A stretch of 64,000 nt of DNA, from positions 11,387 to 75,386 of the IMG/VR virus record IMGVR_UViG_3300023174_004273; one strand, given 5' to 3'. The position numbers are program-made. Source of the stretch: a virus. The stretch's first letter is position 1. Each line of letters begins with the position of its first letter. This document shows positions 30,001 to 33,000 of this stretch, in pieces.

Positions 30001-33000
30001 GCCACCACGCTGGCGCCGGTCAGCACTTTCACCGTTGTGTACACAACAGGGAGCATTGAAGCTTATCCAGCCAGAGCTAGTGCTTTTGCGTTTGTTGGGA
30101 AGATAAGAAAGGACATCGATCACTCTAACATTTTAGCATATTTTATGTGTTCAATCAAGTGATCTGCTATGAGTTGATGGCCTTTTTCATTGGGATGACC
30201 ACCTCGAGCAAATGGTTCTACTCCAAGATCGGTTTTCTTTTGGTGTAGTATTTCTCGGAAACTCAGTCCTGGATAGATCAGACTGGGAACCGTGACACCA
30301 TAGCGATTGGGCAACACCGAGAACTGTACCACTGGTATGCCGTAACGGCTAGTGGATTGATCAAACAAGTTGATTGACGTTTGGAAGTTGTATTCCGCCC
30401 AGTCGGTATGGAAGCTCATCCCCAACCAAAGTTTCTGTAGTTTAAACCAGTTGTCATCAATGTCAGGATTGGGTTGAGTGAGCCAGGTGCCGTGCATGTG
30501 TCTGTTCCATTGTGGATCTCTGCGACTGATTTCGTGCAAGGGATTGAACCAGCTCTGACGAGTGGCATCTGTGTGACCTACTAGGAATAACACATCATCT
30601 GTGCTTTGTCCGTTGCGTAGGTACCACATAAAGTTCCAGCGCATGCTTTCCAGGCTGGACCCAGGAAAGGCCATGTTGTCTAGTTCTAGATCAAAATGTT
30701 TGGCCACTAGTCCAGCATAACAATGGTCTAATCTATAAGGTCTGTTTTGATCATAATGGTCTCTGAAATCTGCGTCAGACAGATCTCGAAACTCTGGTGC
30801 GACCAGTTCATCGCCATAGCTCCAACTATCGCCAAAAACTACCAGTTTACGTATCTTCATCTAAATGCGATGCTGGTTATAAATCCATTGTTGATGGCAG
30901 CGTTGGGGTTGTTGACATAGCCTTCGCCGCCGGTGATGACAAAAGCACCAGTGACATTACCACCCGATGCTTCTGCATAGGCCGTGGCTCCGGTACCTTC
31001 GCCGTGGATATCAATGTTGGGCAGTGGTGTAGACAACCACTGGCTACCTTGGTTGTTCATGGTGATATTTGTAACTGTGCCGCCGCTGACTATGACATTG
31101 CCAACCTTGGCTTTGTATCCATATTGATTGATCTCAAAACGCACATAGTTGTGATAGCCTTCTATGTTCCAATGATCACGTTCTTCTCTATTGATATACT
31201 GACGCTGGCTACCAATGTCATACCATGGGCCCAGTTGTGTGTTAGAGCCTTGTGGTTTCACGTTGCCTGAAAAGTTGTCAAAAGTCATCTGGAATGTGAC
31301 CAGGGGCCGTCCTTGTACATACACAGCCGAAGTGTGATTACGATTGGGATTATCCAAACTGATTTCTGGGTTGGTAGGCACAGTCATTATTTCGCTGGGC
31401 ACAAAAGCAGGGTACACGCTGTCTACTACATCAGCTTTGCCTCGGCCGCCTGAGTATGCATCAGAAAACACAGGCTCATAAAGGTCACTGGTCACTGTGT
31501 TGCGCTCAAGGCTCCAGCCCACAGGTTGTGCATCTATTTCATCTAAGTCAGTTGACAGTAGTGTTACTTTGGCTCGTCCATAGGTGGCGTTTAGGATTTC
31601 CAAATCTTTGGTCAACAACAGTATGTCTCCGTTGGTACTGATCAATCTAAATGTAATGGTACTGCCCGTGATATTCACAGGCTTTTCGTCTTGGTTGACG
31701 AACTGAAATAGTATGACGTTGTCCACGCCACGATGTATCTTTAAGTTTTTTGTGTACACAGGTTGCCACCTCCGGTCAAAGTAAGCACCACTGGTATCAA
31801 TCAATAATACCTGTTGTTTTTGCTGATATAAATAGGCAGTGGTAGAATACATTATAATAATTCCTTAAGATATTTATGGGCACAGAGATCTTCGCCAAAA
31901 TAGCAGAACGATATCCTTTCATAACCTTTTGCACCTACGCCGGTAACGAATACATTGGCGTGGTGCAAAATCGCGATGACGCTGTCACGACCATATACGA
32001 CTTTGGAAATATACAGCATGCTGAGCTTAAAAAGCTGTTTTTAGAACTGGCCAATCAGTGGTGGTGGGAGTCAAATCGTAGCATACCCATCAATATATTC
32101 CTCAAGCAGGACTGGGAAGTATTCCGCCCTTATCTACGAACTTTTGTCAACAAAGATCTGGAAATATTGCACGGTCCATGCACCAGTCTCATTGACATCG
32201 CCCGCAAAAAAAGCAAACGTAAATCAATCACCCTGGTCCGCAAAATGGATTAGATTCATGTGCAAGGCTACCAGCTGTGCGTAGCCCACTGCATGACTTT
32301 TCTTGAAAAAATAACTGTCATCTGCAGGACGTGTCCAAATGTCTTGCGAGATCGCGGGCCAGCCGCCCTGTGCTAGATGTCGCTTGGCCGGGCGTATCAC
32401 AGCAAGGAACATGGCCATCCTGGGTATACTATCGGGCTGTAACTGTTGAACGAGATCATAATGATTGCCAATGTGTACTATCTTTTCGCAAAACTCGCGT
32501 TCTTGTAACCTATGCCAAGGCACAGGAGCAGCCAGCATTTCATCATAGTGTGCTTGATCTCGTATCAGCTGATACACAGTCATGTTTAACAAGTCAATCT
32601 TGAAGTAGCCACGTTGTTCAGCTTCTTGATAGTCTATGGCCGCACATCCATTTACAGGATCTCGAGGTATGTCTGTGATGTACACACCCGAGTTATGCCG
32701 CCGCACCCGCCCATCAGTTGTTTGTCGAGCTGGAGTGTGCTGTATTAACTTCAGTACTTGTTCTCTGTCAGCTAGGTCTATGTCGATGTCTGCGCTCATT
32801 ACCAACCTGCTTTCTTTAACATTTCTTTGGCATACTCTTGATCCGCTGGGTAGTCACCAAACTTCTTTTGCCAAAACTCTGGGTCAATCCAAGGCCAAAC
32901 GATTTTGGTCTGATCAGGGTCCATGTTTTCTAACCAAGCCTGTCCACTTTCGCAGTTGTACAGCACCCAGGCACTGATACGACCTGTGCTTACTGCATAG

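What the first reader, a model, noticed from the sequence alone, without database searches (positions are those of the whole stretch)
32224..32799. A 191-aa minimal DnaE-type polymerase in the core replication operon
Seen: the ORF keeps DnaE motifs in order: DIDID, HNSGV, KIDLL, the P...MA..A..RP helix and the finger motif YFFKKSHA.GY. It is translationally coupled behind gp62-like and gp59-like genes, about 2 kb from the primase. Established: DnaE is normally >1000 aa, and its three catalytic Asp lie in the D-x-D and K-x-D motifs. All three are present here, while the PHP, most of the thumb, and the clamp-binding and OB regions are missing. Inference: this is a deliberately miniaturised, non-processive nucleotidyltransferase rather than a decay fragment. 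It could extend primers for the phage replicase (as B. subtilis DnaE or eukaryotic Pol alpha do) or act as a gap-filling or terminal transferase.
Basis: partly seen in the sequence, partly recalled or inferred. Interest (0 to 1): 0.85.

Follow-up and report, generated by a model that had tools for sequence, protein, structure and literature searches.

The report
Half of split mini DNA polymerase
This 191-residue gene of an uncultured jumbo phage is the metal-binding back half of a stripped-down, two-piece relative of the bacterial replicative DNA polymerase (Pol III alpha/DnaE); the design was described from sequence in 2021, is very common in such phages, and I found no bench test of it.

Summary
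The ORF is real (minus strand, 32224-32799, 191 aa) and all the quoted DnaE motifs are there. It is a true, strongly selected relative of C-family polymerases: dN/dS is about 0.06, D4, D6, K67 and D69 are invariant in 87 diverse relatives, a profile hits only Pol III alpha in the PDB (E 8e-6), and a pLDDT 96.6 model aligns over its whole length to PolC and Pol III alpha (Z 9-9.7).

It is not a self-contained polymerase. It starts at the D-x-D strand and lacks the nucleotide-binding GRGS half of the palm. In all 10 of the more complete related genomes checked, a separate, distant gene of about 173 aa supplies that half. A complex prediction pairs the two (0.91; best control 0.02). The partner gene lies outside this 75-kb fragment.

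This is the C-terminal unit of the "minimal split Pol III alpha" of group 2.2 jumbo phages (Iyer et al. 2021, PMC7824862). This scan has already noted the same kind in at least 304 other genomes.

The upstream genes are not shown to be gp62- or gp59-like. One local twist: a complete 567-aa PHP-less DnaE lies 6 kb away, and no family B polymerase appears in this or related fragments.

The parts
32224..32799 (-). C-terminal (Mg2+- and template-binding) unit of the split minimal Pol III alpha; 191 aa plus stop (P0001)
32776..32790 (-). D4-I-D6-I-D8 strand. D4 and D6 are invariant and match E. coli D401 and D403 (motif DFDVD at 401-405)
   Evidence: the VIA alignment starts at PolC 970 and Taq 460
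32683..32697 (-). H35-N-S-G-V palm motif (H35 and G38 at least 90% conserved); the counterpart of KHCGG in the window's own 567-aa DnaE
32593..32601 (-). K67-I-D69, third catalytic Asp. Aligned by profile to E. coli K553-F-D555; K67 and D69 are invariant
32383..32436 (-). P122...R136-P137-A-K139 helix, aligned to E. coli 'LQPDCFEDMIALVALFRPG' (to residue 641)
32278..32313 (-). Y163-FFKKSHAVGY-A174 finger motif, aligned to E. coli GYGFNKSHSAAYA (within 739-769)
32799..33482 (-). Upstream C2H2 zinc-finger protein (227 aa), with a TAATG overlap onto the C-unit start. Found on the same strand 0-2.4 kb upstream in 19 related loci and adjacent in phage PAC2. Function unknown.
31876..32253 (+). Convergent 125-aa gene (phrog_11637) that overlaps the last 30 nt of the C-unit gene. 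A small opposite-strand gene sits in the same place in Phosso, PAC2, Atu_ph07, RaK2 and Vibrio phage 2.275.O.
24661..26364 (+). Separate, complete PHP-less DnaE (567 aa, P0002) with its own RGSAGS, PDVDID and KVDIL motifs. It is not the missing partner and only a distant relative of the C-unit.
29164..30123 (-). DnaG/Toprim-type primase, 2.1 kb from the C-unit
26351..27754 (-). DnaB-like replicative helicase
37450..38931 (-). UvsW-type helicase, the upstream boundary of the conserved module (UvsW ... C2H2 - C-unit ... primase - DnaB)

Best explanation
P0001 is the C-terminal subunit of a two-subunit, minimal C-family (Pol III alpha/DnaE-type) nucleotidyltransferase. It carries the metal-binding Asp triad (D4, D6, D69), the second half of the Pol-beta-like palm and a trimmed finger (RP helix and KKSH motif). 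The first half of the palm, with the GRGS nucleotide-binding loop, is made as a separate protein of about 173 aa from a distant gene, which lies outside this 75-kb fragment. The two chains most likely assemble by pairing the N-unit's 'VIWGVGRGS' strand with the C-unit's 'DIDID' strand, rebuilding one active site of about 365 aa without PHP, thumb, clamp-binding or OB parts. Shown here: homology, fold, conservation, purifying selection, and co-occurrence of the two halves in relatives. Inferred: physical assembly (prediction only), catalytic activity, and its role. The role is probably short-patch, non-processive templated DNA synthesis that assists the main replicase, such as primer extension, gap filling or repair.
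For: Homology to Pol III alpha: a profile of 87 diverse relatives hits only Pol III alpha chains in the PDB (E 8e-6). It aligns in order, 55-140 to E. coli 539-641 and 151-180 to 739-769. Fold: an AF2 model (pLDDT 96.6, pTM 0.89) has C-family polymerases in all top 15 Foldseek rows (prob 0.84-1.00). VIA-align gives Z 9.7 to PolC (970-1299), 9.6 to Taq (460-841) and 9.0 to E. coli (399-784), with 186-190 of 191 residues aligned; the next unrelated fold scores Z 3.6. Conservation: D4, D6, K67, D69 and P137 are invariant. dN/dS is 0.058-0.060 against three relatives of 88-90% identity. Split: the ORF starts at the residue equivalent to about E. coli 398. The N-unit profile ends at E. coli 392. 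N-unit genes (169-177 aa where annotated or read; Pfam PF07733 positions about 16-98 only, ending at the stop) occur in Phosso, PAC2, Atu_ph07, RaK2, Vibrio 2.275.O, RsoM2USA, XacN1 and three IMG/VR genomes of 61-99% completeness, so 10 of 10 genomes with a C-unit have one. The N-unit family is as large as the C-unit family (at least 7995 versus 7345 clusters). One 375-aa representative has both halves in one chain, with an 8-residue linker like E. coli 393-400. Complex prediction of an N-unit (P0287) with P0001 scored 0.91 against a best control of 0.02. That mark was reached by 58 of 80 solved complexes and 2 of 110 mismatched pairs. The runs agree in at least 99% of contacts, partner pLDDT is 91, and N 134-147 touches C 1-10. 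The pass may owe much to likeness to solved single-chain Pol III alpha. Literature: Iyer et al. 2021 describe exactly this split.
Against: No N-unit gene is in this record, which is only about 22% complete, so the partner is inferred for this phage. The nearest support is that a C-unit 79% identical to P0001 and an N-unit both list a 332,132-base NCBI contig as their longest contig. The N-unit used in the complex prediction is not cognate. No paper in the searched library reports activity, assembly or a phenotype. Pfam and NCBIfam do not recognise the ORF. The fused 375-aa form could not be checked at the DNA level.
Confidence: 0.85

Rival explanations
1. One reading: the 191-aa protein is a self-sufficient miniature polymerase or terminal transferase that works as a single chain.
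For: All three catalytic Asp and the finger motif are present and invariant. The protein folds confidently on its own in the model.
Against: It lacks the palm strand and the GRGS loop that bind the incoming nucleotide's triphosphate in Pol-beta-fold enzymes; it starts at about E. coli residue 398. A separate gene that encodes exactly the missing piece co-occurs in 10 of 10 of the more complete genomes checked. A natural fusion joins the two. The predicted interface buries residues 1-10, including the DxD strand.
Confidence: 0.04
2. The N+C heterodimer is active but is not a templated DNA polymerase. It could be a non-templated nucleotidyltransferase (tailing, nucleotide-signal synthesis or protein/nucleic-acid nucleotidylation), as in many other Pol-beta-fold enzymes.
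For: The thumb, most of the index finger and all duplex-DNA and clamp-binding parts are missing, so the grip on primer-template should be poor. These phages already have a replicase: PolB in G001, G002, Phosso and PAC2, or a complete 567-aa DnaE in this lineage.
Against: The retained finger elements (RP helix, KKSH motif) are specific to C-family polymerases and are at least 90% conserved. The gene sits in a conserved module with UvsW, primase and DnaB. The nearest folds are only replicative C-family polymerases.
Confidence: 0.1
3. It is a decaying fragment or a recent partial copy of the neighbouring 567-aa DnaE gene, without a function of its own.
For: A complete DnaE-type gene lies only 6 kb away.
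Against: The two are only distantly related (BLASTP E 2.0; hhalign E 3e-5 over 106 columns, 17% identity). dN/dS is 0.06 with dS about 1.3. Length is fixed at about 187-203 aa across the listed relatives. The same small gene exists in phages that have no 567-aa DnaE.
Confidence: 0.01

Closest known systems
Split minimal DNA polymerase III alpha of group 2.2 jumbo phages, C-terminal unit (Iyer, Anantharaman, Krishnan, Burroughs, Aravind 2021, Viruses 13:63, PMC7824862; PHROG phrog_11778)
   Same: About 190 aa; begins at the DxD strand; same motifs; same module (UvsW ... C2H2 protein - C-unit ... primase - DnaB); 35-45% identical to the copies in Phosso, PA5oct, Atu_ph07 and RaK2.
   Different: Its phage lineage also carries a complete 567-aa PHP-less DnaE 6 kb away, and no family B polymerase is seen in this or five related fragments of up to 156 kb. 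The paper describes the split enzyme as accompanying a family B polymerase. All these records are fragments, so absence is not shown.
Bacterial Pol III alpha (DnaE), e.g. E. coli (2HNH), T. aquaticus (2HPI, 3E0D), M. tuberculosis DnaE1 (5LEW)
   Same: Pol-beta-like palm with the Asp triad (E. coli D401, D403, D555), the RP helix and the NKSH finger motif, all in the same order; whole-length structural match at Z 9.0-9.6.
   Different: 191 aa against about 1160 aa. There is no PHP, no first half of the palm (GRGS loop), no thumb (roughly E. coli 433-510), almost no index finger (about 642-738 replaced by about 10 residues), and nothing after about residue 784 (clamp-binding, HhH, OB, tau-binding). 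Pfam PF07733 does not detect it.
PolC of Firmicutes (3F2B)
   Same: Best structural match: Z 9.7, 190 residues aligned, chain 970-1299. If the alignment runs ungapped from its first residue, model D4 and D6 fall on PolC 973 and 975. I recall those as PolC's catalytic Asp; I did not check this.
   Different: PolC is about 1440 aa, with exonuclease, PHP, OB and duplex-binding domains in a single chain.
The window's own 567-aa PHP-less DnaE (P0002, 24661-26364)
   Same: C-family palm and finger; also lacks PHP; same replication module.
   Different: It is a single chain with the complete palm (RGSAGS, PDVDID, KVDIL) plus Pfam palm and finger domains (E 6e-40 and 1e-13). It is only distantly related to P0001.

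Membership tests
C-terminal unit of the split minimal Pol III alpha (phrog_11778) | Significant full-length match to the family profile | tested here: met
   phrog_11778 E 1.4e-56, residues 3-185 on profile 7-192 of 197
C-terminal unit of the split minimal Pol III alpha (phrog_11778) | Stand-alone protein of about 190 aa that starts at the DxD strand and keeps the KxD, RP and KKSH motifs | tested here: met
C-terminal unit of the split minimal Pol III alpha (phrog_11778) | A separately encoded N-terminal (GRGS, nucleotide-binding) unit in the same genome | not testable with these tools
   Absent from the 75-kb record, which is 22% complete. Present in 10 of 10 of the more complete relatives.
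C-terminal unit of the split minimal Pol III alpha (phrog_11778) | Jumbo-phage replication module context (UvsW, primase, DnaB) | tested here: met
C-terminal unit of the split minimal Pol III alpha (phrog_11778) | Accompanied by a family B DNA polymerase (as stated by Iyer et al. 2021) | tested here: inconclusive
   No PF00136 match in the own record or in five related fragments. PolB is present in G001, G002, Phosso and PAC2. Fragments cannot show absence.
C-family DNA polymerase catalytic subunit (DnaE/PolC) as a complete enzyme | Catalytic Asp triad in a Pol-beta-like palm | tested here: met
   D4, D6 and D69 are invariant. D69 aligns to E. coli D555 by profile, and D4/D6 match D401/D403 by motif and by where the structural alignment starts
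C-family DNA polymerase catalytic subunit (DnaE/PolC) as a complete enzyme | Complete palm in one chain, including the GRGS nucleotide-binding loop (Pfam PF07733) | tested here: not met
   No Pfam hit at E <= 0.1. The ORF starts after the position where the N-unit and E. coli 348-392 align.
C-family DNA polymerase catalytic subunit (DnaE/PolC) as a complete enzyme | PHP domain, thumb, full fingers, clamp-binding motif, OB domain | tested here: not met
   191 residues cover E. coli 399-784 with the thumb and index finger deleted, and nothing lies before or after
T4 gp59 helicase loader (claimed for an upstream gene) | Match to Pfam T4_Gp59_N / T4_Gp59_C, or a clear fold match to 1C1K | tested here: inconclusive
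   No Pfam match in the record. The profile against the PDB finds only zinc fingers. VIA-align to 1c1k_A gives Z 4.0, rmsd 12.1 A, 166 residues aligned, rank 4 of 48,161 chains.

The most novel reading that the evidence does not exclude
In this lineage the split mini-enzyme accompanies a complete 567-aa PHP-less DnaE, not a family B polymerase. None of six fragments (up to 156 kb) shows PolB, and the mini C-unit and the 567-aa DnaE keep a fixed spacing of about 6-7 kb. The phage would then run an all-C-family, two-polymerase replisome. The clamp-less split enzyme would extend primase products and hand them to the larger DnaE, much as I recall B. subtilis DnaE doing for PolC.
Probability: 0.08. 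Interest if true: 0.7.

Novelty: new member of a known kind. Interest (0 to 1): 0.3.

Why it matters
If the pair of about 365 aa really polymerises DNA, it would be by far the smallest C-family polymerase core. It would also be a natural example of an active site built from two chains. That makes it useful for defining the minimal catalytic unit of the bacterial replicase, for ideas on how Pol III evolved (Iyer et al. see it as a model of the ancestral form), and possibly as a compact engineering scaffold. For annotation, genes like this one should be named 'split minimal Pol III alpha, C-terminal unit'. They should not be called 'DNA polymerase', 'membrane protein' or 'hypothetical protein', as they now are in the records. 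As a discovery it is not new: it was published in 2021 and has been met repeatedly by this scan.

Tried and rejected
- **No family hits:** Pfam and NCBIfam scans of P0001 found nothing. A single-sequence phmmer search against the PDB also found nothing; only the 87-sequence profile reached Pol III alpha.
- **Partner not in this record:** I looked for the N-unit in the own record and in fragments G005 and G006 with PF07733 and with an N-unit protein. None turned up, but these records are 22-45% complete.
- **Relative's contig out of reach:** The genome-contig scan found only one 42-kb contig of a Legionellales MAG.
- **Fused form unverified:** I tried to check the fused 375-aa form (P0146) at the DNA level. 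There was nothing in viral contigs. The two metagenome hits were weak, and the one I read (L186) is an ordinary full-length DnaE.
- **567-aa DnaE as partner, rejected:** it has its own complete palm.
- **Decay fragment or recent copy of that gene, rejected:**
- **gp59/gp62 identity of the upstream genes:** no sequence support. Foldseek found nothing for the C2H2 model. VIA-align gave only a weak gp59 row.
- **Asp clustering:** it could not be measured directly because model coordinates are not exposed to scripts.
- **Literature:** two searches found no experimental work on the split enzyme. The PA5oct omics paper does not mention a DNA polymerase.
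Full report
**1. The observation**

The region 32224-32799 is closed on the plus strand. On the minus strand it is one ORF of 191 codons plus a stop (P0001).
- D4-I-D6-I-D8
- H35-N-S-G-V
- K67-I-D69-L-L
- P122...R136-P137
- Y163-FFKKSHAVGY-A174

The ATG shares its A with the TAA stop of the upstream gene (TAATG). The primase gene (29164-30123; Toprim, phrog_47 E 1.7e-36) lies 2.1 kb away. 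The DnaB-type helicase is at 26351-27754.

**2. Real, conserved and under selection**

- P0001 matches PHROG phrog_11778 ('DNA polymerase', a 197-position profile) at E 1.4e-56.
- tblastn finds a copy of about 190 aa in 96 phage records, 35-45% identical. They include Sinorhizobium phage Phosso, the PA5oct group, Atu_ph07, RaK2, GAP32, 121Q-like coliphages and XacN1. Their annotations vary: 'DnaE-like DNA polymerase III alpha', 'DNA polymerase', 'hypothetical' and even 'membrane protein'.
- The large protein collection holds 7345 relatives with E <= 0.001 among proteins of 105-335 aa. The 120 listed are nearly all 187-203 aa long.
- Against three relatives of 88-90% identity, dN/dS is 0.058-0.060 with dS about 1.3-1.5.
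- In an alignment of 87 diverse representatives (27-53% identical to P0001), D4, D6, K67, D69 and P137 are invariant. D8, H35, G38, R136, K139, K166, H169 and A174 are at least 90% conserved.

Variable length and dN/dS near 1 are not met; I did not screen the relatives' genes for frameshifts as such.

**3. Homology to C-family polymerases**

Pfam, NCBIfam and a single-sequence PDB search see nothing. The 87-sequence profile does reach the PDB, and it hits only Pol III alpha chains (E. coli, T. aquaticus, M. tuberculosis), with a best E of 8e-6. Two segments align in order: profile 55-140 to E. coli 539-641, which puts K-I-D on K553-F-D555, and 151-180 to 739-769, which puts FKKSHA on FNKSHS.

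An AlphaFold2 model built from that alignment is very confident (mean pLDDT 96.6, pTM 0.89).
- Foldseek's top 15 rows are all Pol III alpha or PolC (prob 0.84-1.00).
- VIA-align aligns 186-190 of the 191 residues:
  - PolC 970-1299, Z 9.7
  - Taq alpha 460-841, Z 9.6
  - Mtb DnaE1, Z 9.4
  - E. coli alpha 399-784, Z 9.0
- The best unrelated fold scores Z 3.6.
- In E. coli the motif reads D401-F-D403-V-D405, so the invariant D4 and D6 correspond to D401 and D403. If the alignments run ungapped from their first residues (PolC 970, Taq 460), D4 and D6 fall on PolC 973/975 and Taq 463/465.
- That D401, D403 and D555 are the catalytic residues is my own recollection of the DnaE literature; I did not check it here.

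About 190 residues span about 385 residues of E. coli alpha. The thumb (roughly 433-510), a loop near 575-590 and nearly the whole index finger (about 642-738) are deleted. Nothing corresponds to PHP or to anything beyond about residue 784.

**4. It is only half of an active site**

The ORF begins three residues before the DxD strand. The preceding palm elements are absent: the strand and the G-R-G-S loop that hold the incoming nucleotide in Pol-beta-fold enzymes.

Searching whole genomes of relatives with Pfam PF07733 finds, in every one, a short match to positions about 16-98 of the model only.
- Where the gene is annotated or was read, it is a small protein of 169-177 aa, and in several genomes the match runs right up to the gene's stop codon.
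- These genes lie 5-180 kb from the C-unit.
- They occur in Phosso and PAC2, in three IMG/VR genomes of 61-99% completeness, and in Atu_ph07, RaK2, Vibrio phage 2.275.O, RsoM2USA and XacN1. That makes 10 of 10.
- These N-units end '...VIWGVGRGSSVASYVL...D..EFL[KNR]*'. Their profile aligns to E. coli 348-392. The C-unit therefore picks up about six residues later.
- In the three genomes whose neighbourhood I read (PAC2, Phosso, G001), the N-unit sits two genes upstream of a GroES-like gene.
- The N-unit family is as large as the C-unit family (at least 7995 clusters, about 173 aa).
- One representative (P0146, 375 aa) carries both halves in a single chain. Its 8-residue linker is the same length as E. 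coli 393-400. I could not find its DNA to verify the fusion.

A complex prediction of an N-unit (P0287, with alignment A2) and P0001 (alignment A1) scored 0.91, against a best control of 0.02.
- That mark was reached by 58 of 80 solved complexes and 2 of 110 mismatched pairs.
- The three runs agree in at least 99% of contacts, and partner pLDDT is 91.
- N-unit residues 134-147 (the strand plus the GRGS loop) lie against C-unit residues 1-10.
- This is support, not proof. The pair resembles solved single-chain Pol III alpha, so the pass may be 'from memory'. The N-unit used is also from a relative, not from this phage.

**5. Already described**

[quoted passage not shown] They suggest it cooperates with the family B polymerase in synthesis of one strand or in repair.

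P0001 is that C-terminal unit. Two literature searches found no experimental follow-up. This scan has also noted the same thing before on other DNA: 396 notes in at least 304 genomes. Several follow-up agents reached the same verdict. I consulted those notes only after reaching my own reading (my reading as stated).

**6. This phage's partner gene**

The window is part of a 75,386-base IMG/VR record estimated at 22% complete. No N-unit is in it.

The nearest evidence for this lineage is indirect. A C-unit 79% identical to P0001 (P0016) and an N-unit (P0287) both come from NCBI and Logan, and both list a longest contig of 332,132 bases.

**7. Surroundings**

The module order is UvsW helicase (37450-38931), small genes, the C2H2 protein, the C-unit, a convergent small gene, a structural-like gene, primase, then DnaB. 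The same order is seen in PAC2, Phosso, Atu_ph07, RaK2 and Vibrio phage 2.275.O.

Here the module has extra inserts:
- a radical-SAM/SPASM gene (36215-37462)
- a methyltransferase-like gene (35605-36213)
- a 386-aa gene (33496-34656)

The upstream 227-aa protein has a C2H2 finger and a helical body.
- It stays 0-2.4 kb upstream on the same strand in 19 related loci.
- Its model (pLDDT 86.8) has no Foldseek match.
- Against 48,161 chains its best Z is 4.6. T4 gp59 (1c1k) is rank 4, with Z 4.0 and 166 residues aligned but rmsd 12.1 A.
- No Pfam gp59 domain is found, and its profile finds only zinc fingers in the PDB.

'gp59-like' is therefore an untested hint. Nothing I tested points to gp62; I found no gp62-specific model to run.

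**8. A second C-family polymerase in the window**

ORF 24661-26364 (+, 567 aa, P0002) is a complete PHP-less DnaE.
- Pfam palm PF07733 scores E 6e-40 and finger PF17657 scores E 1.2e-13.
- It hits Pol III alpha in the PDB at E 8e-27.
- It has its own RGSAGS, PDVDID and KVDIL motifs.
- It is not the missing partner, and it is only distantly related to P0001.
- The same gene lies about 6-7 kb from the C-unit in related fragments G005, G006, G008 and G010.
- None of the six fragments, up to 156 kb, shows a family B polymerase. The genomes without the 567-aa gene where PolB was found are G001, G002, Phosso and PAC2.
- Fragments cannot show absence. Still, this leaves open that the split enzyme here serves a C-family replicase, not a family B one.

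**9. Verdict**

The gene is a bona fide, selected, miniaturised C-family polymerase piece. However, it is one subunit of a two-chain enzyme, and that enzyme is already in the literature and is common. Activity and role remain untested. Interest is modest, mostly for the unresolved biochemistry and for the local co-occurrence with a second, complete mini-DnaE.

Noticed in passing
window 24661-26364 (+): Complete 567-aa PHP-less DnaE (palm plus finger Pfam domains, own GS/DxD/KxD motifs) that converges on the DnaB gene. Orthologues of 80-94% identity are abundant in metagenomes. None of six fragments carrying it (up to 156 kb) has a family B polymerase. It may be the replicase of this lineage.
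   Followed up: partly
window 32799-33482 (-): C2H2 zinc-finger protein, translationally coupled to the mini-DnaE unit and conserved upstream of it. It has a weak but full-length fold match to the T4 gp59 helicase loader (Z 4.0, 166 residues aligned, rmsd 12.1 A) and no sequence support.
   Followed up: partly
window 31876-32253 (+): Convergent 125-aa gene (phrog_11637, unknown function) that overlaps the last 30 nt of the mini-DnaE gene. A small opposite-strand gene occupies the same place in Phosso, PAC2, Atu_ph07, RaK2 and Vibrio phage 2.275.O.
   Followed up: no
window 36215-37462 (-), 23586-24590 (-), 35605-36213 (-): Two radical-SAM/SPASM proteins and a methyltransferase-like protein are inserted in the replication module. 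They are not present at this place in PAC2 or RaK2.
   Followed up: no
window 27769-28473, 28464-29171, 30120-30860 (all -): Three proteins of about 235-246 aa lie between the helicase and the structural-like gene, flanking the primase. By eye, two of them start with GDS-type motifs (GDSYS, GDSWSYGDE) and look like SGNH/GDSL hydrolase paralogues. Not scanned against families.
   Followed up: no
protein P0146 (375 aa, representative library): A single-chain form that joins the N- and C-units of the split mini Pol III through an 8-residue linker. Its DNA was not found in the viral or metagenome contig collections, so the fusion is unverified.
   Followed up: partly
L193 (PBLX01000009.1, 42-kb contig of a Legionellales MAG), 10001-10546: A mini-DnaE C-unit (49% identical to a close relative of P0001) sits on a contig binned into a bacterial MAG. 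This is probably jumbo-phage DNA mis-binned or co-assembled.
   Followed up: no
window 20824-22677 (-): 617-aa protein with a strong DUF6267 match (E 2.7e-40). Another first-stage note calls it a dual nucleotidyltransferase. Not examined.
   Followed up: no
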